Below, one piece after another: positions 1-35,259 of a DNA stretch of 35,259 bases. The stretch is from IMG/VR virus record IMGVR_UViG_3300045988_102484; one strand, given 5' to 3'. A program made the translations under genes and the position numbers. The first letter of the stretch is position 1; each line of letters begins with the position of its first letter. Source of the stretch: a virus. The notes under the pieces were generated by a model. It saw only the letters and a list, made by a program, of their open reading frames with translations. It made no database searches and was not told the DNA's origin.

Positions 1-80
1 AGTATGAGGACTTGCGCCGCGAGTATGAGGACTTGCGCCGCGAGTATGAGGACTTGCGCCGCGAGTATGAGGACTTGCGG
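1..80 (+). repeat. 21-bp tandem repeat GAGTATGAGGACTTGCGCCGC (about 3.9 copies; last copy degenerate, ...CTTGCGG)
   Basis: Direct reading gives units at 1-20 (first base missing), 21-41 and 42-62, with a partial unit at 63-80. The unit is identical to the one at 35161..35259 and encodes REYEDLR heptads. Confidence 0.95.
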
Positions 81-455
81 TACACCCACCACGTTGACGG
101 GAATCACAAGTCTCTAATCAAATGCGCACCGCCTAACAGCACCGGGCGCTTGCATGTATGTCAAAAGCCTGTGGAGCTTCTGCGGCGGCTGGTGCGCGTT
201 TCAAGCGATCCCGGGGACGTGGTGCTGGACTGCTTTATGGGATCCGGCTCTACCGGATGCGCGGCGCTCCGGGAAGGGCGCGACTTCATCGGCATCGAAC
301 TCGACGCCGGATTCTTCGCGGCGGCAAAAAAGCGGATAGAGGAGGAAGCGGCAAACCCGTATGCCGATAATTTGACGATATGGGACGATACGCTTACAAG
401 AAGAGCTTGCCGGACTGGGGCGCACAAACAGCCGCAGACCTCAAAATCGCCATAA
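1..455 (+). CDS. DNA methyltransferase (N4/N6, beta-class), C-terminal half; continuation of 34480..35259 across the circular junction
   Basis: The frame is open from base 1 (track ORF 12..455). HVCQKPVELLRRLV and VLDCFMGSGSTG...GRDFIGIE form the AdoMet-binding FxGxG region typical of the N4/N6 methylase family. Preceded by REYEDLR repeats. Confidence 0.85.
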   Translation, partial: YEDLRREYEDLRREYEDLRREYEDLRYTHHVDGNHKSLIKCAPPNSTGRLHVCQKPVELLRRLVRVSSDPGDVVLDCFMGSGSTGCAALREGRDFIGIELDAGFFAAAKKRIEEEAANPYADNLTIWDDTLTRRACRTGAHKQPQTSKSP

Positions 456-1606
456 AAGCCTACATCCTGTCCGCCGTACTCAATAGCAAGAGCGACGAGC
501 AAATAAGGGAACACGTCCGGAAAGAGGTTGAGGAATTCCGGCAGGAGTTCAGCGAATCGCAAGCGGAGGAGGCGACCGGCTATGTGCAGGAGCTGACCGC
601 GCTGGCGGAGGATGTGCTGGCAATGACGCGGAAGGCGATGGGAAATCTGACGCCGTATATGTTCGCGGCGGCAGTAGCGCCGACTGGGAATCTGACTGAG
701 ACGCAGAAAGCCAACATCGGAAAGGCTGCGCAACTCATCATGCGACCGATCGACAGGGAAACGGTCAGAAAGGTCGCCGTCGAATACCGATACAAGCCGG
801 CAAGCGGAGAGCCGACCGCAGATCTTCCGGAATTCGCTTACAACCGGGCGACGCCCGCGCAGACCTACTACAAGGACGTCCACGAGCAGACGCGGGCATG
901 GATGCAGGATTTCCAAAAGATCAAAGAGAGCCGGAACTTTGTCGCAAATGTAAACCCAAGAGCTTACACGGAGATGGGGGTGCGGTTCGATGCATACCGC
1001 CGCGAAAAGGCTCGGCTGATACAGCAGGGGGTCAAAACCGTATACGTTGCGCCGCACGCCAACTGCTCCTTGCGTTGCCAAAGGTGGCAAGGGCGTGTGT
1101 ACAGTCTGGACGGCTTCCGAGGCGTGCGAGACGGTCGGAACGTGATCCCTATTGAGGACGCCGCGGACAATGTGACGTACACGAGCAAGCGCACCGGGCG
1201 AACGTATCAGGCGGGGCTATTCGCCTATAACTGCCGGCACAGCATGACGCCGTATCAAGACGGGCAGCTTGTTGAGACGATACCGGCGGACGTGGTGGCA
1301 ACGCAACGGGCGCTTGAGGAGCGGCAACGCGCGATGGAGCGCGAGATCCGGTTTCAAAAAGAAAAAGGCACATACTGGGAGATTTTGGCAGGCAAGAACA
1401 ACAACGTCGGACTTGACAAGGTGGCGCGGTCTTGCTACGGCAAGGCGGCTGTTTTGAAAAAAAGATACATAGCATTTTCGAAAAAGAACAACATCCCGGT
1501 TGTTCCAGAGCGCCTTTCGATAATGCAAGGCGAGGCGCTTTACACACGGACAGCACGGGGCAAGCGCGATATCAAGGATGTCAGCGCGAACCCCGATGTC
1601 AAATAA
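380..1606 (+). CDS. Head morphogenesis / minor capsid protein (Mu F / SPP1 gp7-like)
   Basis: 408-aa ORF downstream of the portal. Has the Cys/His motif region ...PHANCSLRC...YNCRHSM... typical of MuF-like proteins. No Shine-Dalgarno precedes ATG 380, which overlaps the methylase by 76 nt, so the start is uncertain (TTG 407 is the alternative). Confidence 0.65.
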   Translation: MGRYAYKKSLPDWGAQTAADLKIAIKAYILSAVLNSKSDEQIREHVRKEVEEFRQEFSESQAEEATGYVQELTALAEDVLAMTRKAMGNLTPYMFAAAVAPTGNLTETQKANIGKAAQLIMRPIDRETVRKVAVEYRYKPASGEPTADLPEFAYNRATPAQTYYKDVHEQTRAWMQDFQKIKESRNFVANVNPRAYTEMGVRFDAYRREKARLIQQGVKTVYVAPHANCSLRCQRWQGRVYSLDGFRGVRDGRNVIPIEDAADNVTYTSKRTGRTYQAGLFAYNCRHSMTPYQDGQLVETIPADVVATQRALEERQRAMEREIRFQKEKGTYWEILAGKNNNVGLDKVARSCYGKAAVLKKRYIAFSKKNNIPVVPERLSIMQGEALYTRTARGKRDIKDVSANPDVK

Positions 1607-2227: not shown

Positions 2228-3133
2228 ATGTCGTTCAAATACGTAAACATGAATATCGACGAGGTCTATGCGCGGATTTTTGAGCGTAACTTCTACCGGG
2301 ACACCGTTCTTATGCCGGGTGTGACTTACACCGACAAGTATCAGGACGGACCCGCCGGGGCGATCTACGTCCACAAATTTGCGGACGGTGCGCCAACTGT
2401 ACCGGGAGCTCCCGGTCGTGACTTCACTCACACGGTCGCAAGCGACTCGCTCATCCAGATCTTGCTCAATAACAACTACCAGGAATCGGACAAGCTGTAT
2501 CAGGTTCAGCTTAACGCGATTTCCGCACCCGCCGAAGCAGCGCTATTGACTCGCGTGACGCAGAAGGTGCGCCAGGGTCGCGACCTTTCTGCGCTCGGAT
2601 GCCTCATTACCGAAGGCACGAGGTCTGCCAACTCCGGCGTGATCGGATCCGCTTCCGGGAACGTTTCGGCGCTTGACGCGCTCGCCAAGGAGCGCACTGC
2701 CGCATCCGAGGCGGCAGCTTCTTCTGCTCGCGTCGTTCTTGCCGCACCTCGCTTTGTCGAGCAGTTCGTTCGCGAGGCGTTTGGGAAGTTCACGCCTTCC
2801 TATAACGACACGCTGATCCGTAGCAACGCGCGAGTCATTGACTACCTCGACTTCCACATCATCGAATGCAATATGCTGTCCATCGCGTCCGCGTCCAAGT
2901 ACTATGACAGCACCGGCACGCTGAAGACCGTCGCCCAGACTGATCTCGCCGACGTCGATTTCATCATGTACAATCCGGAAGCCTTCTCGGTCATTGACAA
3001 CCTCAACGTGATGCGCGTCATTGATGGCGGGAAGGACTTCCTCGGCGTGTTGGCACAGGAGGAGGTCAACACCGGATTCAAAGTTACCAATTCCGCGCTC
3101 GTGCGCGTACGCAGAACGACAGCCGCAGGCTAA
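2228..3133 (+). CDS. Major capsid protein
   Basis: 301-aa ORF with RBS GAAAGGAAAAACACA-ATG. Sits after the scaffold and before the head-tail connectors. Typical size and composition. Confidence 0.7.
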   Translation: MSFKYVNMNIDEVYARIFERNFYRDTVLMPGVTYTDKYQDGPAGAIYVHKFADGAPTVPGAPGRDFTHTVASDSLIQILLNNNYQESDKLYQVQLNAISAPAEAALLTRVTQKVRQGRDLSALGCLITEGTRSANSGVIGSASGNVSALDALAKERTAASEAAASSARVVLAAPRFVEQFVREAFGKFTPSYNDTLIRSNARVIDYLDFHIIECNMLSIASASKYYDSTGTLKTVAQTDLADVDFIMYNPEAFSVIDNLNVMRVIDGGKDFLGVLAQEEVNTGFKVTNSALVRVRRTTAAG

Positions 3134-3143
3134 GGAGGCAAGC

Positions 3144-3644
3144 ATGGCAGACGTATACCGCCCGTACAGCGACGGGCAAATGGACTATGACGCGACGCGC
3201 CACAGGTACCGGCTCACGCCTGAGTACGTGCTGAACGAGTTGGGCATAGATCTGGACTCCCAACTTGCGAGCGGGAACGCTGCCGACCGCGGGCGCAACC
3301 CCGGGATATTCCTGCGCCGCGTATCTGACCAGATATACGGCGCGGTGTACAGCACCACGCCGTACCGATTTGGCAAGGAGCGCGAGTTGGCACTTTCGCG
3401 GAACTTCCGCGACACCTTGCGCGACGCCATGTCGGAACAGGTTGTTTACATACTGCAGAACGGGGATCCGTCTGCGTATGCCGGGGTTGACGCTGTGGCG
3501 TATCAATCGGTAGAGCGGGAAAGGCTTGACCAAGCGCGCATAGCGCCGATGGCGCTTGATTTGCTCGTGTACTACGGAATCATCAGCCTCGGGTACCGAT
3601 CCGGGCGAGACATTACGCCGGACTACGACCGGGAGGGATACTGA
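3144..3644 (+). CDS. Head-tail connector / DNA-packaging adaptor protein
   Basis: Internal start of track ORF 3021..3644: TAAGGAGGCAAGC-ATG at 3144. 166 aa, first gene after the capsid gene. Confidence 0.6.
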   Translation: MADVYRPYSDGQMDYDATRHRYRLTPEYVLNELGIDLDSQLASGNAADRGRNPGIFLRRVSDQIYGAVYSTTPYRFGKERELALSRNFRDTLRDAMSEQVVYILQNGDPSAYAGVDAVAYQSVERERLDQARIAPMALDLLVYYGIISLGYRSGRDITPDYDREGY

Positions 3645-21477: not shown

Positions 21478-21780
21478 TCAAAAGTTGTGGATCTCGCCGT
21501 CTCGCCCGATGTATCTTTCGTGGCATAGCTTTGCCATTTCAAGACCGCTAAAAACGATTTGCATCGGGTGCAGTCCAGCTTCTTTTTTGCCGTTCGTGAA
21601 ATCCGCGTACTTTCTGCGCGTGCCGAAGTTATCATTTTTGACGATGATGTCGCCGCGCTCGTTTCCGAAGTTAACAACCACCGCGCGAACCTCCCGGTTG
21701 ACATTGAAGTGATTTTCGTCGATATCGAACACCTCCTTGTATATCTTGGTCGTCAATTCCGCTTTCGTTGCCTTTCCCAT
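21478..21780 (-). CDS. Hypothetical protein (first gene of the attP-proximal operon)
   Basis: GGAGGA lies 7 nt before ATG 21780 (track ORF starts at 21798). 100 aa, no motif recognised. Confidence 0.6.
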   Translation of the reverse strand: MGKATKAELTTKIYKEVFDIDENHFNVNREVRAVVVNFGNERGDIIVKNDNFGTRRKYADFTNGKKEAGLHPMQIVFSGLEMAKLCHERYIGRDGEIHNF

Positions 21781-21840
21781 TTTCCGTTCCTCCATCATTT
21801 ATTTGTTTTCGTTTTATGGGCTCCTTGCCCCTGTGGCTGT

Positions 21841-21869
21841 ATTATACCACAATTCGCGCGAATTGTCAA
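21841..21869 (-). promoter_or_regulatory. Consensus sigma-70-type promoter with an 18-bp palindromic operator
   Basis: The minus strand reads TTGACA (21869..21864), a 17-nt spacer, then TATAAT (21846..21841). The perfect palindrome ACAATTCGCGCGAATTGT (21849..21866) fills the spacer and overlaps the -35. Confidence 0.8.
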
Positions 21870-21894
21870 GGGGGTTTGAAAAATTTTTTTCAAA

Positions 21895-21920
21895 TTTTCG
21901 TTTCAATTTTTCGTTTCAAA
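21895..21920. repeat. Two tandem 13-bp units TTTTCGTTTCAA(T/A); candidate integrase arm-type sites
   Basis: CGTTTCAA at 21899..21906 and 21912..21919, in the same orientation as the copies at 22116 and 22128. Confidence 0.6.
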
Positions 21921-22012
21921 TAACGCGCAAAAAGCCAGTACAAACCGCGCGCAAACATGCGCGTTTGCTCTATTTTTTGAGCATAAAAAGCGCCGTGCAT
22001 CAACAGAAAAGT

Positions 22013-22041
22013 AAAAAAGCCTTGTTTTCACAAGGCTTTTT
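22013..22041. terminator. Bidirectional hairpin terminator next to the attP core
   Basis: A6-GCCTTG-TTTTCA-CAAGGC-T5. On the minus strand it directly follows the tRNA-like 3' end. Confidence 0.75.
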
Positions 22042-22044
22042 GTT

Positions 22045-22069
22045 TGGAGCGAGTAACGGGAATCGAACC
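22045..22069 (-). other. attP core: 3'-terminal ~25 nt of a tRNA (T-loop, acceptor strand, discriminator U, CCA)
   Basis: The minus strand reads GGTTCGATTCCCGTTACTCGCTCCA. Upstream sequence does not complete a cloverleaf. The integrase gene lies 63 bp away. Confidence 0.7.
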
Positions 22070-22115
22070 GTTTACTATGTGCGAAAATCCATTGTCGGAT
22101 ATATATTTTTTTCGG

Positions 22116-22135
22116 CGTTTCAAATTTCGTTTCAA
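22116..22135. repeat. Two further CGTTTCAA copies (12-bp spacing) overlapping the int stop codon
   Basis: CGTTTCAA at 22116..22123 and 22128..22135. Confidence 0.6.
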
Positions 22136-23199
22136 TTTTTGCTAAAAACTCCAGAAAAATAGGACTGCAGCTGATCCTGGACGCTGCTCTTTTTGGACGC
22201 CATGATGTGCCCGTAAACTTGGTCAATCATGTTCTCTGTCTCGTGCCCGACATAGTCCGCGATGTACTTCTTCGGCACGTTGAGCGACAGCATGACGGAT
22301 ATCAGATAATGTCGCAAGTCGTGGAAGCGGTACTGCCGGACGCCTGCACGTTTAATGACCCACCGCCAGCGCGACGTGATGTCCGCCGGGTTGATCGTGA
22401 TGCGGTCGCCCGGCTCCGCTCCGTTCGGCTTGGCGGCATTCAGCGCGTCCACGACCGCCGGGAACAGCTTGATGGTTCGCGTGCCGGCTCTCGTCTTGGT
22501 TGTCTTTGTGTGGTATTCATTGTCGTCTCCGAGTACCAGTGCCTGATGGATGCTGATGATGCCATCGTATAGATCTACATCGCGCCACGTGAGCGCGGCG
22601 ATCTCCGAACGACGCATACCACAGCAGGCGCCAAGTAAGACCGGGATTTCCATATCGGTGCCGGCGGCGGCTTGCATAATGCGCCGAATCTCCTGCTCTG
22701 TCGGTATCCTGACCGTGCTCCGCTCCTTCTGCGGCATTCGAATGTTGAAAGTCACGTCCGGCATCTCGTCAGCAAGAGACGCCGAAAAAAGCCCGTAGGC
22801 GTTGCGAACCGTTTTGGGCGCAACTCTGCGTGCCTCATCGTTTACGACGCTCTGGACGAGATTTTGCGACAGCCCCGACAGTTTAGCATCCAGAAGCTCC
22901 TGCAAATTGTTCCGGACTATGCCACGGTATGAGCGAATCGTAGCCGGGGACAGGACTGCGGCGCGGCGGTCTATATAGTCGTTCATCATGTCGCGGACGG
23001 TTCGTCCCTGCCCTGTCCGTGCCGCGCGCTTGTCTGCCTTGCGCGCGGCAAGCTCCAGCTGAACCTCGGCATAGGTGGCGCGCGTGATTGACTCGACGAT
23101 AGACTTACCGTCCGGATCCTTTCCGGCGTATATGCGCGCCGTATAGGAGCCGGACGGGAGTTGTTTGATTCTGGGTAGCCTTGTGTTGCGTCGCGTCAT
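22132..23199 (-). CDS. int: Tyrosine recombinase / phage integrase
   Basis: 355 aa. Has ..AALTWRDVDL.. (Arg), HDLRHYLIS (HxxR) and GHETENMIDQVYGH (His...Tyr), plus an N-terminal SAM-like arm/core-binding region. Adjacent to attP. Confidence 0.92.
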   Translation of the reverse strand: MTRRNTRLPRIKQLPSGSYTARIYAGKDPDGKSIVESITRATYAEVQLELAARKADKRAARTGQGRTVRDMMNDYIDRRAAVLSPATIRSYRGIVRNNLQELLDAKLSGLSQNLVQSVVNDEARRVAPKTVRNAYGLFSASLADEMPDVTFNIRMPQKERSTVRIPTEQEIRRIMQAAAGTDMEIPVLLGACCGMRRSEIAALTWRDVDLYDGIISIHQALVLGDDNEYHTKTTKTRAGTRTIKLFPAVVDALNAAKPNGAEPGDRITINPADITSRWRWVIKRAGVRQYRFHDLRHYLISVMLSLNVPKKYIADYVGHETENMIDQVYGHIMASKKSSVQDQLQSYFSGVFSKN

Positions 23200-27976: not shown

Positions 27977-29017
27977 ATGAGATGGTCGGAGGAGTCAGAC
28001 GGATGCACCGAGCGAATTTCCGAGATTGTGCAGAAAATCCTTGAAGCCGGGAAGCAAATAGGGAGAGCTGAGCGGGAAGCGGAAATCAAAGCCGAAAGAC
28101 GGCAGAAGGACGCCGAGAGGAAGGCGAGAAGCCGAAAAAACGTGTCACGTGACCTTGGCGAAGATGTCACAGGACATTCCGGAGAATGTCACGTGACATT
28201 TGTGCCGGAAAAGCAATGTTCAAAAATTCAAGAGGTCGGCAACAACGAGGCTTTCCGCGACATGATTGACGCCGCAATTTTGGACGGCGAACAATCAATA
28301 AAGGCATTGATTGACAGTGCTTTTATAGAGGGGAAAGAAGAAGGAACCAAGGAGGCGGAGCAAGAAAGAAAGAGGAAAGAAAGCGCTGATAGAAACAATC
28401 GGCGAATTGCAAAAAAGGGACAATTGTCCGCGGACGTGTCCGCGGACATGTCCCCGGACAATTCGAGCGGTTCCCCCTCCTTTTCGCCCCCCTTTTTCCC
28501 CCCCTCTTTTTCCCCCTTGAACCCCTTTTTAACTCCCCCCTATAATCCCCCCACTTTTCCGCCCCCTCGCGCGGTCAACGCTGACGCGTTGACCTATGCG
28601 CCGGAAGGTCACCGCTGTCGCGGCGACCGCGTGCGGTCAGAACGGGGACGCGGAAGTTTGGCGCAAGACGGCGGAAAGACCGCGGATCTATTCGCCGAGT
28701 TCTGGAACAGGTATCCGCGGAAACAACACAAGCAGGAGGCTTGGCGTGAGTGGTGCAGACTTGCACCGGACGCCGAAACGACCGACCTCATCGCGCGAGC
28801 CGTAGAAACGCGCAAGCAGTCACGGCTCTGGCAGGAGGACGGTGGACGGTACGTCCCAAAGCCCGATAAGTTCCTACGCGGCAGGCAGTGGGAGGATGAG
28901 CTGCTTGAAGTGGACAAGCCGCAAGAATACAGCGGCGACGGTGCCAGCGGTACATTCGACACGAATGACTTCTTTCGAGCGGCGGTCGAAAAAGCCACTG
29001 GCGACACAGAAAAATGA
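27977..29017 (+). CDS. Replisome-organiser/replication-initiation-like protein containing the putative origin
   Basis: 346-aa ORF. The C-terminus (FAEFWNRYPRKQHKQEAWREW...GGRYVPKPDKFLRGRQWEDE) matches a motif common in phage replication-associated proteins. The middle third is low complexity and coincides with the iterons and polypyrimidine tract, so the true protein could instead start near TTG 28658. Confidence 0.5.
   Translation: MRWSEESDGCTERISEIVQKILEAGKQIGRAEREAEIKAERRQKDAERKARSRKNVSRDLGEDVTGHSGECHVTFVPEKQCSKIQEVGNNEAFRDMIDAAILDGEQSIKALIDSAFIEGKEEGTKEAEQERKRKESADRNNRRIAKKGQLSADVSADMSPDNSSGSPSFSPPFFPPSFSPLNPFLTPPYNPPTFPPPRAVNADALTYAPEGHRCRGDRVRSERGRGSLAQDGGKTADLFAEFWNRYPRKQHKQEAWREWCRLAPDAETTDLIARAVETRKQSRLWQEDGGRYVPKPDKFLRGRQWEDELLEVDKPQEYSGDGASGTFDTNDFFRAAVEKATGDTEK
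28143..28198. repeat. Iteron set A: three TGTCAC(G/A)(T/G)GAC(A) palindrome-like sites with 22-bp period
   Basis: Sites at 28143..28153, 28165..28176 and 28187..28198. GTCACGTGAC is a perfect palindrome. Confidence 0.75.
28425..28460. repeat. Iteron set B: three abutting TGTCC(G/C)CGGAC(A) palindromes with 12-bp period
   Basis: Sites at 28425..28435, 28437..28448 and 28449..28460. Shares the TGTC-N4-GACA architecture of set A. Preceded by the palindrome GGACAATTGTCC. Confidence 0.75.
28471..28594 (+). promoter_or_regulatory. Strand-asymmetric polypyrimidine tract (C5-C8 and T4-T5 runs) followed by a 9-bp inverted repeat; putative ori unwinding/structure element
   Basis: 28471..28567 is roughly 90% C/T on the + strand by my count. 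GGTCAACGC-TGAC-GCGTTGACC at 28573..28594. Confidence 0.5.
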
Positions 29018-31417: not shown

Positions 31418-31843
31418 ATGTCCGAGAAAAGTGAAGAAGCGCGGAAGAGGTACCAAGCGCCTCAGTTTGTCGCGGGCTCAGCCCGGGCGAGCGAAGCTGG
31501 AAAAAAAGGAGCTGCCGCGTCTGCAAGGAAGCGAGCCGAACGCGCTTTGATTCGTAAGACACTGGAGGATGTTCTTTCCAGCGACTTCCCTATGAAAGAC
31601 GAGAAAAAGCGCCTCCGACTGCTCGGGTTCGATCCGAAAACGGTACAGCAAGCGCTTGTCATGTCGGTGATTGCCAAAGCGATCCAGGACGGGAACAACA
31701 AGGCACTGATTCAATACGCTCAGCTCTTGGGTGAGCTTGAATTCACGGACAACGGATCCTCCAAGGTTGACGCTATACTCGCGGAGATTGACCGCAAGGC
31801 GGAGGACGACCGATGCGAAGTCGAAGACGATGGCGACGCTTGA
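31418..31843 (+). CDS. terS: Terminase small subunit
   Basis: AAAGGAGGTGCACC-ATG (internal to track ORF 31391). 141 aa. Has a basic ..GKKGAAASARKRAERA.. segment and the helical ..AKAIQDGNNKALIQYAQLLGE.. pattern typical of TerS. Overlaps terL. Confidence 0.65.
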   Translation: MSEKSEEARKRYQAPQFVAGSARASEAGKKGAAASARKRAERALIRKTLEDVLSSDFPMKDEKKRLRLLGFDPKTVQQALVMSVIAKAIQDGNNKALIQYAQLLGELEFTDNGSSKVDAILAEIDRKAEDDRCEVEDDGDA

Positions 31844-33053
31844 CCTGACGGCAAAGCAGCGCGAGTTCTGGCGCGGCTGTACACATCGTTGGAACATCAA
31901 ATGCGGCGCCACACGTAGCGGAAAGACGTACCTCGATTACTTCCTGATCCCTCGCCGTTTGCGCGACACAGCCGGTCTTGAAGGTCTTGCGGTCATTATG
32001 GGCGCAACACAGGCGACCGTCAGACGGAACATCATCGAGCCGATGAAGCGCATCTGGGGGGACGATCTGGTCGGGGATATCCGGAACGACAACACGGTGC
32101 AGCTGTTCGGCGAGCGGTGCTTTGTCATCGGCGCCGACAAGGTCAGCCAAGTTGACAAGGTGCGCGGCGCGTCCATCAAATACTGCTATGGTGACGAGGT
32201 CGTGACGTGGCATCAAGAGGTTTTCGAGATGCTCAAAACGCGACTTGATAAGCCGTACAGCAAGTGCGACGCGACATGCAATCCTGGAAGCCCGGAGCAT
32301 TGGCTAAAGGCTTTCGTTGACTCATCCGGCGCGGATATATTCTACCAGCAATACACCATTTTTGACAATGATTTTCTTGATCCGGCTGTTCTTGCGGATA
32401 TGCTCCGCGAGAACAAAGGAATATACTACCAGCGCTATATACTCGGTCAATGGGTTCGCGCCGAGGGCGCGATTTACCGAGAGTTTGCGGACAATGAAGA
32501 GCAGTTTTTGATTGACGCGGACAAGCTGCCGCGCGAGCGATTCGGCGAGATTGTGATCGGGCAAGACTTCGGCGGACATAAATCCAAGCACGCATGGACT
32601 GCGACGGCAATCACGAGGGACTTGCGCGAATTGTATGTGCTTCGCTCCGAGGAATACGATGCGACCGGAATGGCGGTTGAGACTATGATCGAGCATTTCC
32701 GACGGTTCTACAGCGGGATCCGGGAGAGGTACGGGAACGTATCCGCCGTCTACGCAGACAGCGCAGAACAAGCGATAATCAACTCTGAGCGGATTTCCGG
32801 ACTGCCGGTCAGAAACAGCATAAAAAACGAGATAAACGACCGTATACGCGCTACCGATCGACTTCTGACCGGGCGGCGCATTCACGTCGTGCGCGGCGAA
32901 AATGCATCACTGTGCAAGGCGCTCCGCGAGGCGGTTTGGGATGACAAGTCAAAAAGCGATACTCGGCTTGACATCCCTGGCGTGACCAACATTTGCCCGC
33001 TTGACGCCTTCGAGTACTCCTGGGAGCACCGGATCCGCGCGCTTACGGCGTGA
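31830..33053 (+). CDS. terL: Terminase large subunit (PBSX/Terminase_3-like)
   Basis: 407 aa from ATG 31830. Walker A CGATRSGKT, Walker B-like IKYCYGDEV, and C-terminal nuclease block ..VYADSAEQAII.. Confidence 0.85.
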   Translation: MATLDLTAKQREFWRGCTHRWNIKCGATRSGKTYLDYFLIPRRLRDTAGLEGLAVIMGATQATVRRNIIEPMKRIWGDDLVGDIRNDNTVQLFGERCFVIGADKVSQVDKVRGASIKYCYGDEVVTWHQEVFEMLKTRLDKPYSKCDATCNPGSPEHWLKAFVDSSGADIFYQQYTIFDNDFLDPAVLADMLRENKGIYYQRYILGQWVRAEGAIYREFADNEEQFLIDADKLPRERFGEIVIGQDFGGHKSKHAWTATAITRDLRELYVLRSEEYDATGMAVETMIEHFRRFYSGIRERYGNVSAVYADSAEQAIINSERISGLPVRNSIKNEINDRIRATDRLLTGRRIHVVRGENASLCKALREAVWDDKSKSDTRLDIPGVTNICPLDAFEYSWEHRIRALTA

Positions 33054-34480
33054 ACATACGCAAGGGGGGACATACCGTGAGTATAACTTTTGAACCGGGA
33101 TGGCTTGCGGTTAACTTCCGCGCCGCTCTTGAGAAGGCACTCAATGTATTCGGGCAGAAGGGCAAGGCGACCGAGACCTTGATGCAGCAGAGGGTTGAGG
33201 AGACGTGGGCGCGTCAATACATGGCGACCGACAAGATCAATTTTGCCGAGATTTTTGCCGTTCGGCTGACAAACTATGCCGCCAACGGCTCAACTGTGGA
33301 ATGCGAGGACGAGGGGACCGGCGCAGTCCTGCGTTCCATGTGGTCGAAGCTGTACAAGTGGATGCCGCTCGGTATAGCAACCGGGCGCGTCTATCTACTG
33401 CCGTACATAGTCGGCGATAGCGTATACGTCTCGTTCGTTCCGCAGTCGCAAGTCATCGAGACCGACATGACCGGCGACGATGTGATCGGGTTTGTCTGCA
33501 TCGCGGACACAAAGGCGATGAACCACAAAGAATACTGCCGCATCGAGCACTACCACTACGACCGGGGAACCAGATCGTACAGCATCAGCAATAAGGCGGT
33601 CGAAAGAACCAGCGGGGCTGAGGTGCCGTTGGATATTATCCCGTCATGGAGTCAGATCCAGCCCGTAATTGTGTTCGCAGGAGTGGACGCGCCGCTCTTT
33701 GGGTTCGTTGACAGCCCGCGAGACAACAGGTTACCGTCCAAGCCTGCCGGAGCCGGCATACTGTACGGCTGCGAATCCACCGTAAAAGAGATCCTTGACT
33801 GTATTCGGCAGTACGAGACTGAATACAACAACACGGTGTCGGTTCTCGGCGTAAACCAAAGCCTTGCGGCGCCCGTGATTGATCCGGTCACTGGATTTGC
33901 AAGCGGCGTTGACACTTCCGCATTGCCGCCACGATACATCCGGTACAATGCAATCGGGAAGCTCGGAGCGGATCAGTCTGACCTGTTCTCCGTGTTCTCA
34001 CCGGACATTCGAGGGGAGGCGTATCGGTCAAGATTGCTTGACCTATTCGGGCGGCTGGAGCGTCAGGTTGGAACATCGTCCGGCATTCTGACGCCCGCAG
34101 AAACCGCACAGGCGACTGCGACGCAAGTCCGCAGAACGATGTACGACACGCTCTGCATGGTTGACCGCATTCGGGAAAGCGTTGAGCGTGCGGTTGATGA
34201 CGTAGCCTATGCCGTATCCGTTCAGCTTTCCGCAATCGGTCATGCGGTCGGTGACTATAAGCCGTCAATCACTTGGGGCGACGGCATGGAGACCGCCAAG
34301 GATGAGCACTTTGCAATGATGTCGCAGGCGCACTCCTCCGGCGTGATATCAGATGCCGAATATCGGCAGGAGGTATATCCGAGCGAGAGTATTGACGAAG
34401 CGCAGGAAGCGGTCGAGAAGATTCGTGCGGAAAAGCCGGATCCGCTGATGTCCATGTTCCCAGCGGAGGGTGACGAGTGA
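33050..34480 (+). CDS. Portal protein
   Basis: 476-aa ORF directly after terL (GTGA overlap). Alternative start GTG 33077 lies 6 nt after AAGGGGGGA. Size and position are typical, and the C-terminus is acidic. Confidence 0.75.
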   Translation: MNIRKGGHTVSITFEPGWLAVNFRAALEKALNVFGQKGKATETLMQQRVEETWARQYMATDKINFAEIFAVRLTNYAANGSTVECEDEGTGAVLRSMWSKLYKWMPLGIATGRVYLLPYIVGDSVYVSFVPQSQVIETDMTGDDVIGFVCIADTKAMNHKEYCRIEHYHYDRGTRSYSISNKAVERTSGAEVPLDIIPSWSQIQPVIVFAGVDAPLFGFVDSPRDNRLPSKPAGAGILYGCESTVKEILDCIRQYETEYNNTVSVLGVNQSLAAPVIDPVTGFASGVDTSALPPRYIRYNAIGKLGADQSDLFSVFSPDIRGEAYRSRLLDLFGRLERQVGTSSGILTPAETAQATATQVRRTMYDTLCMVDRIRESVERAVDDVAYAVSVQLSAIGHAVGDYKPSITWGDGMETAKDEHFAMMSQAHSSGVISDAEYRQEVYPSESIDEAQEAVEKIRAEKPDPLMSMFPAEGDE

Positions 34481-35259
34481 TGCAGCTGATACATGGAGAC
34501 TGCATCAGCGCAATGGAGCAGATGCCGGACGGTTCTGTTGACCTTATCCTGACGGATCCGCCGTACAACATCAAAGTCAAAAGAACCAAGAACGGGAAGG
34601 CGCGCACGGAGGAATGGGACTGCATCAAAGATTATCCGGATTTCATGATGCGGTGGATAACGCAAGCCAACCGGGTACTAAAGCCGCAAGGCGTCATGTA
34701 CTTTTTCCACAACGACATGAATCAGCTCCCGGAAATCATGGAGCGGATTCGGAAAGAAACAGACTTTGCGCTTATCTCGTTCCTGATATGGGACAAAGGG
34801 GAATGCCGGGCGCAAGCATGGAAATGCAGGGACGCCGAAAGCCACACCGCGTTGCGCTCGTGGTTCAACACATGCGAATATATCCTGCATTATGTTAAGA
34901 GCGGAGCCAGCAAAACAGAACGGGACAAGACAGGACTCGACCGGATATACAGCAACCCGGAGCTATTCCGACCGCTCAAAGAGTGGTATCGCTCCGAACT
35001 CAAGCGCCTCGGAAAGACGGAAGCGGAATTGATAGACTTTTACAAGCAAGTCACCGGAAAAGGAAGTGGAATGTTCCGCCACTATTTCAAAGATTCACAG
35101 TTTGAGATTCCAACGGCGGATGTATATCGAAAGGTGTTTTTCCCGTTCGGATTCCGCCGCGAGTATGAGGACTTGCGCCGCGAGTATGAGGACTTGCGCC
35201 GCGAGTATGAGGACTTGCGCCGCGAGTATGAGGACTTGCGCCGCGAGTATGAGGACTTG
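34480..35259 (+). CDS. DNA methyltransferase (N4/N6, beta-class), N-terminal half; runs off the window end and continues at base 1
   Basis: ATG 34480 overlaps the portal TGA. Encodes MQLIHGDCISAMEQMPDGSVDLILTDPPYN (DPPY at 34555..34566). There is no stop codon to the end of the window, so it is absent from the ORF track. The last 99 nt are REYEDLR repeats. Confidence 0.85.
   Translation, partial: MQLIHGDCISAMEQMPDGSVDLILTDPPYNIKVKRTKNGKARTEEWDCIKDYPDFMMRWITQANRVLKPQGVMYFFHNDMNQLPEIMERIRKETDFALISFLIWDKGECRAQAWKCRDAESHTALRSWFNTCEYILHYVKSGASKTERDKTGLDRIYSNPELFRPLKEWYRSELKRLGKTEAELIDFYKQVTGKGSGMFRHYFKDSQFEIPTADVYRKVFFPFGFRREYEDLRREYEDLRREYEDLRREYEDLRREYEDL
35161..35259 (+). repeat. 21-bp tandem repeat GAGTATGAGGACTTGCGCCGC (4 full copies + 15 nt)
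   Basis: Units at 35161, 35182, 35203 and 35224, plus a partial unit at 35245..35259. All copies are identical. Confidence 0.95.

What the first reader, a model, noticed from the sequence alone, without database searches (positions are those of the whole stretch)
34480..35259. In-frame REYEDLR heptad VNTR between the catalytic (DPPY) and AdoMet-binding (FxGSGST) halves of a late-expressed DNA methyltransferase
Sequence observations:
- The 21-bp unit equals exactly 7 codons, so a copy-number change can never frameshift the gene.
- All copies are identical at the nucleotide level, which suggests recent or ongoing slippage or recombination.
- The charged heptad (R-E-Y-E-D-L-R) would form a helical spacer of variable length.

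Why the position matters:
- The repeat sits where beta-class N4/N6 methyltransferases (order: motif IV ... TRD ... motif I) carry their target-recognition region.
- Established precedent: in the Type I enzymes EcoR124I/II, the copy number of a short in-frame repeat in HsdS changes the spacer length of the recognised sequence.

Inference:
- Repeat length here may tune specificity, oligomerisation or activity. That would be an in-frame form of phase variation.
- The gene is wedged between the portal and MuF genes, so it is probably made late and protects progeny DNA from restriction.
Basis: partly seen in the sequence, partly recalled or inferred. Interest (0 to 1): 0.7.

Follow-up and report, generated by a model that had tools for sequence, protein, structure and literature searches.

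The report
Variable heptad repeat in phage methyltransferase
A phage DNA methyltransferase gene carries a perfect, in-frame 21-base tandem repeat encoding a probable coiled-coil helix whose length differs between related phages; this is real and widespread in the enzyme family, but its exact length here is unresolved and its effect on the enzyme is unknown.

Summary
The repeat is real. A perfect 21-bp unit (RREYEDL) sits in frame in a beta-class N6_N4 DNA methyltransferase, between a helical insert and motif X/I.

The window is a circular contig broken inside the array: 105 bp at the 3' end, 79 bp at the 5' end, 77-bp end overlap. The copy number is therefore unresolved. Five is the floor a k=77 de Bruijn assembly prints for any number of at least 5.

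- **Close relatives:** 63 orthologues carry 1-5 copies.
- **Wider family:** about 100 relatives at roughly 50% identity, and about 60 of 101 more distant cluster representatives, carry their own arrays of 1-7 copies, consensus xxYExLR.
- **Homogeneity:** arrays are often nucleotide-perfect within a lineage and differ between lineages.

Length variation between genomes is thus supported.

One caveat matters. Genomes identical except for one unit came from two assembly pipelines that differ systematically by one copy. Short-read counts are good only to about ±1, and rapid switching is not shown.

The heptad has a Tyr/Leu core and aligns unit for unit with the Helicobacter pylori fucosyltransferase heptad repeats, a known dimerisation element and molecular ruler. 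My best reading is a slippage-prone coiled-coil stalk. Tuning of target specificity is untested and geometrically awkward.

The parts
34480..35259 (+). 5' part of the methyltransferase gene (residues 1-260). The ATG overlaps the portal stop codon (TGATG).
   Evidence: Pfam PF01555 at 144 bits; phrog_67.
34555..34566 (+). Motif IV, DPPY (catalytic).
   Evidence: invariant P27 P28 Y29 in 82 sequences.
34858..34899 (+). SWFNTCEYILHYVK. This is the last strand of the N-terminal half (motif VIII region). The variable insert starts after it.
35155..35259 (+). Heptad array at the 3' end of the window: 5.0 perfect copies of CGCCGCGAGTATGAGGACTTG (RREYEDL).
1..79 (+). The same heptad array at the 5' end of the window: 3.8 perfect copies. 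Bases 1-77 are identical to the last 77 bases of the window.
3..455 (+). 3' part of the methyltransferase gene, read from base 3. It contains the rest of the array, YTHHVD (81-98), HVCQKP (153-170), FMGSGST motif I (234-254) and the stop codon TAA (453-455).
33050..34480 (+). Portal protein gene, immediately upstream.
   Evidence: phrog_533, 4.4e-53.
380..1606 (+). Minor head / MuF-like gene (Phage_min_cap2). It overlaps the last 76 nt of the methyltransferase gene.
   Evidence: PF06152, 5.8e-18; phrog_581.
31731..33053 (+). Terminase large subunit gene.
   Evidence: PF03237; phrog_2.

Best explanation
The 21-bp array is a replication-slippage-prone, in-frame minisatellite. It encodes a Tyr/Leu-core heptad helix, a probable coiled coil.

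**Position in the protein.** The helix sits inside a phage beta-class (probably N6-adenine) DNA methyltransferase. It links a flexibly tethered helical insert (residues about 153-225) to the conserved H-x2-D-x2-H / HxCQKP segment that leads into the AdoMet-binding half.

**Conservation and variability.** The helix is an old, conserved part of this methyltransferase family, and at least one unit is always present. Because its unit is a heptad, gaining or losing units changes only its length, by about 10.5 Å per unit. The angular register of what it connects is kept, so many lengths are tolerated.

**Most likely role.** I think it acts as a dimerisation element or stalk, as shown for the near-identical heptads of H. 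pylori fucosyltransferases. On this reading its copy number drifts by slippage with little or no effect on target sequence.

**Shown here:** the anatomy, the conservation and the copy-number differences between genomes.

**Inferred:** the coiled coil, the dimerisation and the functional consequences.
For: **Array and reading frame**
-.

**Enzyme family**
- PF01555 at 144 bits against a 26.7-bit cut-off.
- CcrM, M.BceJIV, RsrI and MboIIA match residues 3-130 and 284-349 only.

**Orthologue copy numbers**
- 1 copy in 15 proteins, 2 in 31, 3 in 10, 4 in 6, and 5 in 1.

**Diverged relatives (98 proteins)**
- 1-7 copies.
- Flank lengths are constant at 70 and 23 residues and show no correlation with copy number.

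**Heptad conservation**
- Among 132 distinct heptads: Y 92%, E 77%, L/M 90%, R/K 96%.
- Tyr and Leu are therefore spaced 3 and 4 residues apart, as in the a/d positions of a coiled coil.
- The acidic and basic residues fall where g and e positions would lie.
- Degenerate arrays, such as the five Y..L heptads in a Vibrio phage methyltransferase, still keep the Y/L stripe. This argues for selection on a multi-heptad amphipathic helix.

**DNA arrays**
- They are 100% perfect within lineages but use different codons between lineages.

**Structure prediction**
- AF2 predicts one straight helix at 229-258 for 5 copies and a 4-residue helix for 1 copy, with the rest unchanged.

**Similarity to known heptads**
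- phmmer of the array alone against PDB sequences finds the H. pylori FucT heptads DDLR[AVI]NY aligned unit for unit (E=1.6e-7). All other weak hits are coiled coils.
- The Pfam leucine-zipper model HALZ matches below threshold.
- The FucT heptads are reported to mediate dimerisation and to act as a molecular ruler (PMC2583950).
Against:
- AF2 confidence over the array is only 62-70, and pTM is 0.68-0.70.
- The helix is internal. A parallel coiled coil would therefore separate the insert from the core by up to about 50-70 Å, spanned on the other side only by a low-confidence linker of about 12-20 residues.
- One-copy alleles are common (15 of 63). A long coiled coil is thus not required for a functional gene, if those alleles are functional.
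- No methylation or oligomerisation data exist for any member that I could find.
Confidence: 0.5

Rival explanations
1. **Specificity ruler or contingency locus.** The number of heptads sets the distance or geometry between a DNA-reading module and the catalytic pocket, or between the two subunits of a dimer. Slippage would then reprogram the methylated motif or the enzyme's activity, and selection would maintain the variability as a fast counter to diverse host restriction systems.
For: - The array lies at the edge of the variable, TRD-like insert.
- Arrays stay nucleotide-perfect in many diverged lineages, and 55 of 98 relatives have adjacent identical units.
- Copy number is uncorrelated with flank divergence: 57% of pairs differ at 99% identity or more, against 69% below 94%.
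- Precedents exist. HsdS repeat number sets the spacer length (PMC3983042). FucT heptad number acts as a ruler (PMC2583950).
Against: - The enzyme has no HsdS-like two-TRD architecture.
- One heptad is about 10.5 Å, or about 3 bp and roughly 100° around B-DNA. Single-unit steps would put the two modules on different faces of one duplex.
- Flanks and linker do not co-vary with copy number.
- Perfect arrays are self-perpetuating without selection.
- The apparent fast switching is confounded by the assembly pipeline.
- No methylome data are available.
Confidence: 0.15
2. **Neutral junk expansion.** Only the last unit, next to R-N/Y-x-H, is functional. Extra copies are selectively irrelevant slippage products in a solvent-exposed helix.
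For: - One-copy alleles are frequent.
- AF2 models with 1 and 5 copies are otherwise the same.
- There is no co-variation with flanks.
Against: - Old, degenerate multi-unit arrays keep Tyr and Leu in register while other positions drift. Unconstrained junk should not do this.
- Only 2 of 98 diverged relatives have a single unit.
Confidence: 0.25
3. **Assembly artefact.** The array, or its variation, is produced by de Bruijn graph assembly rather than present in the DNA.
For: - The window is broken in the array, with a 77-nt end overlap.
- k-mer content saturates at 2, 3, 4, 5, 6, 7 and 8 copies for k = 21, 31, 55, 77, 99, 119/127 and 141.
- In five sample pairs, one pipeline reports exactly one unit more than the other in otherwise identical genomes.
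Against: - The array itself occurs in frame in hundreds of assemblies from several sources and assemblers.
- Arrays with unit-specific substitutions cannot be collapsed and still range from 2 to 7 units.
- One-copy alleles are found identically in NCBI, Logan and ENA assemblies.
- The artefact therefore concerns exact counts, not the existence of the feature or of between-lineage variation.
Confidence: 0.08

Closest known systems
Heptad-repeat region of Helicobacter pylori alpha1,3/4-fucosyltransferases FutA/FutB (DD/NLRV/INY units)
   Same: - The unit is 7 residues and 21 bp, and is in frame.
- The pattern is the same, Y-acidic-x-L-R, and aligns unit for unit (E=1.6e-7).
- Copy number varies between and within strains.
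- The region is reported as a dimerisation domain and molecular ruler (PMC2583950).
   Different: - The FucT repeats lie at the C-terminus of a GT-B glycosyltransferase, next to membrane-anchoring helices.
- Here the array is internal, between two halves of one Rossmann-type methyltransferase domain, in a phage gene.
- There is no homology outside the repeat.
- The function of the array here is untested.
Central repeats of Type I HsdS subunits (EcoR124I/EcoR124II and H. pylori group 2 S genes)
   Same: - An in-frame short repeat sits in a helical spacer of a DNA methylation enzyme.
- Its copy number varies naturally.
- In HsdS it sets the length of the non-specific spacer of the target (PMC3983042).
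   Different: - HsdS is a separate specificity subunit with two recognition domains joined by the repeat-bearing coiled coil, and its unit is 4 residues.
- This protein is a single-chain beta-class methyltransferase with one insert and a 7-residue unit.
- No effect on the target has been shown.
Beta-class N6-adenine DNA methyltransferases with solved structures (CcrM 6PBD, M.BceJIV 8URK, M.RsrI 1EG2, M.MboIIA 1G60, M1.HpyAVI 5HFJ)
   Same: - The motif order is the same (IV ... X, I) and the fold is the same (Foldseek probability 1.0).
- Sequence matches cover residues 3-130 and 284-349.
- From my own knowledge, these enzymes act as dimers.
   Different: None of them has the ~150-residue insert (131-283) with the helical module and the heptad array. 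No solved structure covers it.
Simple-sequence-repeat phase variation of Type III mod and Type I hsd genes (phasevarions)
   Same: A slippage-prone repeat lies inside a methyltransferase gene.
   Different: Those repeats are not multiples of three, so they switch the gene on and off by frameshift. This one is 21 bp and never changes frame.

Membership tests
Beta-class N6_N4 DNA methyltransferase (Pfam PF01555) | Match to the family model above the curated threshold. | tested here: met
   PF01555 at 144.4 bits against a 26.7-bit cut-off, residues 20-345; phrog_67 at 4.4e-72.
Beta-class N6_N4 DNA methyltransferase (Pfam PF01555) | Permuted motif order: catalytic D/SPPY (IV) lies N-terminal to the AdoMet motif FxGxG (I), with a variable region between them. 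| tested here: met
   DPPY at residues 26-29. HVCQKP and FMGSGST follow the array. CcrM aligns to residues 3-130 and 284-349.
Beta-class N6_N4 DNA methyltransferase (Pfam PF01555) | Fold similarity to solved members. | tested here: met
   Foldseek probability 1.0 to CcrM, M.BceJIV, RsrI, MboIIA and HpyAVI. The AF2 model has pLDDT 79.8.
Beta-class N6_N4 DNA methyltransferase (Pfam PF01555) | Methyltransferase activity, and the target base (N6-A versus N4-C) and motif. | not testable with these tools
   DPPY rather than SPPY, and nearest structures that are all N6-adenine enzymes, suggest N6-A. This is inference only.
H. pylori FucT-type heptad VNTR | A tandem 7-residue unit with Tyr/Leu core and the pattern Y-D/E-x-L-R. 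| tested here: met
   Unit-for-unit alignment to 5zoi residues 364-420, E=1.6e-7. Family consensus.
H. pylori FucT-type heptad VNTR | Copy number differs among closely related genomes. | tested here: met
   1-5 copies in 63 orthologues. Exact counts are uncertain by ±1.
H. pylori FucT-type heptad VNTR | C-terminal position in a GT10 fucosyltransferase, followed by amphipathic membrane-anchoring helices. | tested here: not met
   The array is internal to a PF01555 domain, and there is no glycosyltransferase domain.
H. pylori FucT-type heptad VNTR | The repeat mediates dimerisation, and its length sets product size (ruler). | not testable with these tools
No biochemical data exist.
Type I HsdS repeat spacer (EcoR124 type) | A separate specificity subunit with two target-recognition domains flanking the repeat. 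| tested here: not met
   This is a single polypeptide with the catalytic motifs. No HsdS-type domain appeared among the Pfam hits.
Type I HsdS repeat spacer (EcoR124 type) | Copy number correlates with the spacer length of the recognised sequence. | not testable with these tools
   No methylome data are available.
Phase-variable (ON/OFF) methyltransferase genes | A repeat unit that is not a multiple of 3, so that slippage shifts the frame. | tested here: not met
   The unit is 21 bp.
Coiled coil | Heptad periodicity with hydrophobic a/d positions and charged e/g positions. | tested here: met
   Y 92% and L/M 90% at positions 3 and 6; R/K 96% at position 7; acidic residues at positions 2 and 4. 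Weak PDB hits are all coiled coils.
Coiled coil | Two or more helices actually pair. | not testable with these tools
   Only monomer AF2 was available, and it shows a straight helix with pLDDT 62-70.

The most novel reading that the evidence does not exclude
The xxYExLR heptad arrays found across a large family of phage beta-class methyltransferases would be true contingency loci.

- Slippage changes the length of a coiled-coil stalk.
- That changes the geometry between a DNA-reading helical module, or the partner subunit, and the catalytic pocket.
- The result is a changed methylated motif or methylation efficiency.

Phage populations would then hold a standing mixture of protection patterns against host restriction systems. 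This would be the first repeat-length 'molecular ruler' in a Type II-like or orphan methyltransferase, and the first in a virus.
Probability: 0.12. Interest if true: 0.85.

Novelty: new variant of a known kind. Interest (0 to 1): 0.55.

Why it matters
**Biological interest**
- In-frame repeat-length variation is known to retune a glycosyltransferase (H. pylori FucT) and Type I specificity subunits.
- In four literature searches on this theme I found no report of it in single-chain beta-class methyltransferases or in phage anti-restriction enzymes.
- Here it is a family-wide trait. It appears in about 60 of 101 cluster representatives at 50% identity.
- If length matters for dimerisation, activity or target choice, phages would carry a cheap, reversible way of diversifying DNA protection.

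**A direct experiment is available**
- Express alleles with 1 to 7 units and read the methylomes.

**Technical consequences**
- These arrays break short-read phage assemblies.
- They give pipeline-dependent copy numbers.
- They create terminal overlaps made only of tandem repeat, which can be mistaken for genuine direct terminal repeats when genome completeness is called.

Tried and rejected
1. **Linked homodimer model.** I built an AF2 input of protein+protein rows with a paired alignment (A2) to test coiled-coil pairing.

2. **One-copy orthologue model.** AF2 gave the same pLDDT and pTM as the 5-copy model. The array is therefore not what limits confidence in domain placement. No coordinates were available to measure geometry.

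3. **'Isogenic' protein pairs as evidence of rapid switching.** P0126/P0127, P0151/P0147 and P0157/P0156 differ only by one unit.
   - I traced two of the three pairs to their contigs; P0151/P0147 was not traced.
   - In both traced pairs the two alleles come from two assembly pipelines.
   - Those pipelines differ systematically by one copy in what look like the same samples.
   - I therefore rejected these pairs as evidence of rapid switching.

4. **Co-variation of copy number with flank length.** I tested the linker and flank lengths and found no correlation.

5. **Host assignment through species-representative genomes.** The family is almost absent there. The hits were an Anaerovibrio MAG at 43% identity and a Ruminococcus MAG contig that starts in an array. 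Otherwise only P0048 lies on a 230-kb Gehongia tenuis contig.

6. **GenBank phages.** No relative exceeds 31% identity.

7. **Literature.** Four searches found no description of heptad or coiled-coil repeats in phage methyltransferases.

8. **Whole feature as an artefact, or ON/OFF phase variation.** Both readings are rejected; see the rival explanations and membership tests.
Full report
**1. What is in the sequence**

Tandem Repeats Finder reports two perfect arrays of the same 21-bp unit. One lies at 35155..35259 (5.0 copies, 100% matches) and one at 1..79 (3.8 copies, 100% matches).

The ORF that starts at ATG 34480 overlaps the portal stop codon as TGATG. It runs to the end of the window in frame and ends in ...FGF(RREYEDL)5. 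Read from base 3, the start of the window continues (YEDLRRE...)LRYTHHVDGNH...HVCQKP...FMGSGST... to a TAA at 453-455.

The window is therefore a circularly closed phage contig that was cut inside the array. The first and last 14, 35, 56 or 77 bases are identical. The joined gene thus encodes 385, 392, 399 or 406 residues with 5, 6, 7 or 8 heptads.

**2. The copy number here is a floor, not a measurement**

I rebuilt the locus in silico with 1-12 units and compared k-mer sets. For k=77 the k-mer content is identical for every copy number of at least 5, which corresponds to a pure run of 107 bp. That is exactly what remains after trimming the 77-nt overlap.

The corresponding floors for other k values are:

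| k | Copy number at which k-mer content saturates |
|---|---|
| 21 | 2 |
| 31 | 3 |
| 55 | 4 |
| 99 | 6 |
| 119/127 | 7 |
| 141 | 8 |

The 77-nt maximal overlap and the 79-nt left run fit a k=77 graph assembly. This is my inference. A second, 99.4%-identical contig (L028, IMG/VR 3300045988_124450) also begins inside the array. So do several more distant relatives (L036-L038, L051). The window carries at least 5 units and possibly more.

**3. What the gene is**

- The joined protein matches Pfam N6_N4_Mtase at 144 bits against a 26.7-bit cut-off, over residues 20-345. It also matches PHROG 67, 'DNA methyltransferase'.
- Solved beta-class enzymes (CcrM, M.BceJIV, MboIIA, RsrI, HpyAVI, PvuII) match by sequence only over residues 3-130 and 284-349.
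- They match the AF2 model by fold with Foldseek probability 1.0.
- DPPY (residues 26-29) precedes FMGSGST. That is the beta-class order, and DPPY points to N6-adenine (inference).
- Residues 131-283 have no solved counterpart. In the model they comprise:
  - a low-confidence linker (144-151, pLDDT below 50);
  - a four-helix module (153-223);
  - one straight helix (229-258, pLDDT 62-70) that is the array;
  - a confidently placed segment carrying invariant H264, D267, H270, R284, H286, K290 and P291.
- A one-copy orthologue gives the same model, with a 4-residue helix in place of the long one and the same pTM, 0.70 against 0.68.

**4. Genomic context**

The gene order is terminase large subunit (31731-33053), portal (33050-34480), methyltransferase, then a MuF-like minor head protein (380-1606). 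All are on one strand with overlapping ends. No consensus promoter or terminator lies between them.

The same order is found in orthologous contigs. Late co-expression is a fair inference.

It is a property of this phage group only. In 3-kb flanks of the other family members I found no homologues of this portal or MuF. In a Methanosarcinales virus the related gene sits near a primase gene, 1.8 kb and five small genes upstream of it.

**5. Comparative evidence for length variation**

*Orthologues (at least 85% amino-acid identity, 91-94% nucleotide identity).* These 63 proteins carry the following numbers of units:

| Units | Proteins |
|---|---|
| 1 | 15 |
| 2 | 31 |
| 3 | 10 |
| 4 | 6 |
| 5 | 1 (this window) |

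Some arrays have unit-specific substitutions that a graph cannot collapse. Examples are HREYEDL-RREYEDL twice in P0131, and REYDDF-RREYDDL-RREYEDL-RREYEDL in P0128.

*Relatives at 47-56% identity.* Ninety-eight of these carry their own arrays of 1 to 7 units:

| Units | Proteins |
|---|---|
| 1 | 2 |
| 2 | 27 |
| 3 | 29 |
| 4 | 27 |
| 5 | 11 |
| 6 | 1 |
| 7 | 1 |

- Lengths change in steps of seven residues, apart from short extra insertions at the N-terminal edge in some relatives, and the flanks have constant length.
- Units are often identical within a protein (55 of 98) but differ between proteins. Examples are QDYESLR x6, RDYESLR x4, QEYEAMR x4, and KDYEGLR/KDYEELR/REYEELR x7.
- At DNA level the arrays are 100% perfect in many lineages with different codons.

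*More distant representatives.* In a search of 50%-identity cluster representatives, about 60 of 101 full-length hits have 2-5 such heptads at the same position.

*Remote members.* These keep the element too. A Methanosarcinales virus enzyme at 27% identity has REYEDLRREYEDLRRPF. A Vibrio phage enzyme has five degenerate Y..L heptads.

The element is therefore old, and its length differs between lineages.

**6. A caveat found on the way**

Three protein pairs were identical outside the array and differed by one unit. I traced two of them to their contigs.

- The 3-copy alleles all come from assemblies named '..._METAG-scaffold_N'. The 2-copy alleles all come from MEGAHIT 'k119_/k141_' assemblies.
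- The contigs have nearly the same lengths and break points.
- L134 against L136: 21 kb, 2 mismatches and one 21-bp gap.
- L135 against L137: 17 kb, 0 mismatches and one gap.
- L138 against L142: 13.7 kb, 0 mismatches and one gap.
- All five assemblies from one pipeline report one unit more than all five from the other.

There are two possible explanations. Either these samples hold both alleles and the pipelines pick differently, or one pipeline miscounts. The sign and size of the difference are what a graph collapse would give.

I cannot decide between them without reads. Perfect-array counts from short-read assemblies are therefore trustworthy only to about ±1, and rapid within-population switching is not demonstrated.

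In line with either reading, the chance that two orthologues differ in copy number hardly depends on how diverged their flanks are. It is 57% at 99% identity or more, and 69% below 94%.

**7. What the repeat probably does**

*Sequence evidence for a coiled coil.*
- Across 132 distinct heptads, position 3 is Tyr (92%), position 4 Glu (77%), position 6 Leu/Met (90%) and position 7 Arg/Lys (96%).
- Tyr and Leu are spaced 3 and 4 residues apart, the a/d pattern of a coiled coil. Arg falls at e, and an acidic or small residue at g.
- Old, degenerate arrays keep the Tyr/Leu stripe. This argues for selection on a multi-heptad amphipathic helix rather than on a single unit.
- The array alone, searched against all PDB sequences, finds the heptad region of H. 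pylori alpha1,3-fucosyltransferase (DDLR[AVI]NY) aligned unit for unit, E=1.6e-7. Every other weak hit is a coiled coil.
- The Pfam leucine-zipper model HALZ matches below threshold.

*The FucT precedent.* The FucT heptads vary from 1 to 17 copies. They are reported to be needed for quaternary structure, to form a dimerisation domain, and to act as a molecular ruler for O-antigen fucosylation (PMC2583950).

*Geometry (from established helix geometry).* A heptad adds about 10.5 Å and two full turns of a supercoiled helix. Gain or loss of units changes length but not the relative orientation of the parts joined. That explains why only multiples of seven are seen and why many lengths are viable.

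*Best reading.* The array is a slippage-prone coiled-coil stalk or dimerisation element. At least one unit is needed, and its length drifts.

**8.

HsdS repeat number does set the spacer in Type I targets (PMC3983042). However, that architecture, two recognition domains on a separate subunit, is absent here.

One heptad corresponds to about 3 bp and roughly 100° around B-DNA. A rigid ruler along one duplex should not tolerate single-unit steps, and the flanks do not co-vary with copy number.

The idea is not excluded, because flexible tethering or a dimer acting on two sites could accommodate it. I rate it at about 0.15.

**9. Novelty**

I found no report of heptad or coiled-coil repeats in phage or beta-class methyltransferases. 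No solved structure covers the region.

The phenomenon belongs to a known kind: in-frame repeat-length polymorphism of a helical spacer, as in FucT and HsdS. Here it appears in a new enzyme class and in viruses, and it is a family-wide trait.

**10. Verdict**

| Question | Conclusion |
|---|---|
| Observation | Confirmed; the copy number here is unresolved (at least 5) |
| Variable number between genomes | Supported |
| Rapid switching | Unproven and confounded by assembly |
| Coiled-coil stalk | Probable |
| Effect on specificity | Unknown |

Interest is moderate to good, because a simple experiment with alleles of 1 to 7 units would settle the matter.

Noticed in passing
window 1-77 and 35183-35259: The contig's 77-nt terminal overlap consists only of the tandem array. 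Software that calls 'direct terminal repeat = complete genome' would accept it. The closure is probably right, because relatives are 33-37 kb, but the repeat is not a true genome terminus.
   Followed up: partly
L134-L137 and L138-L143 (ENA assemblies ERZ286... versus ERZ273...): Two assembly pipelines give otherwise identical phage genomes (0-2 mismatches in 14-21 kb) that differ by exactly one 21-bp unit, always in the same direction. This is either mixed populations or a systematic miscount of tandem repeats.
   Followed up: partly
window 81-170 (protein residues 262-291): Directly after the array lie invariant H264, D267, H270, R284, H286, K290 and P291. In most relatives the segment reads N-Y-H-R-C-D-x-M-H-C-N ... 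H-T-C-Q-K-P. This His/Cys/Asp cluster looks like a possible metal site. It has no counterpart in the solved beta-class enzymes matched by sequence.
   Followed up: no
window 28425-28560, inside ORF 27977-29017 (+): Three copies of the palindrome-containing unit (G)TCCGCGGAC(A) are followed by a long C/T-rich tract (CCCCCTCTTTTTCC repeats) and a promoter-like TTGAAC-18-TATAAT at 28517-28546. It looks like an origin or regulatory region embedded in a gene.
   Followed up: no
window 21888-21921 and 22116-22139: Repeated TTTCAAATTTTCG / CGTTTCAAATTT motifs lie where a + strand ORF (21737-22162) meets a - strand ORF (22132-23199). They may be operator sites.
   Followed up: no
P0017 (230 aa, 11 contigs, longest 37.8 kb): A natural deletion allele of the orthologous methyltransferase lacks residues about 122-275, that is, the whole insert and the array. 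It joins ...KNGKPE directly to CAPPNSTGRLH.
   Followed up: no
P0014 (NCBI, 336 aa), P0016 and P0152: Three aberrant alleles occur at or near the array. In P0014 the array runs straight into VVLDCF, with 49 residues missing. P0016 is frameshifted before the array, which is then read as STANMRT units. P0152 is frameshifted about 20 residues after it. These are either misassemblies at the repeat or real defective alleles.
   Followed up: no
window 380-455: The last 76 nt of the methyltransferase gene overlap the MuF-like gene. The encoded tail (residues about 353-385) is predicted disordered (pLDDT about 35) and is conserved among orthologues.
   Followed up: no
L130 (BK063672.1, Caudoviricetes sp. 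vir515, host given as Methanosarcinales) 2353-3396: A methyltransferase only 27% identical overall carries REYEDLRREYEDLRRPF. It is encoded by DNA 89% identical to the window's repeat unit. This is the only GenBank phage hit to the window DNA.
   Followed up: partly
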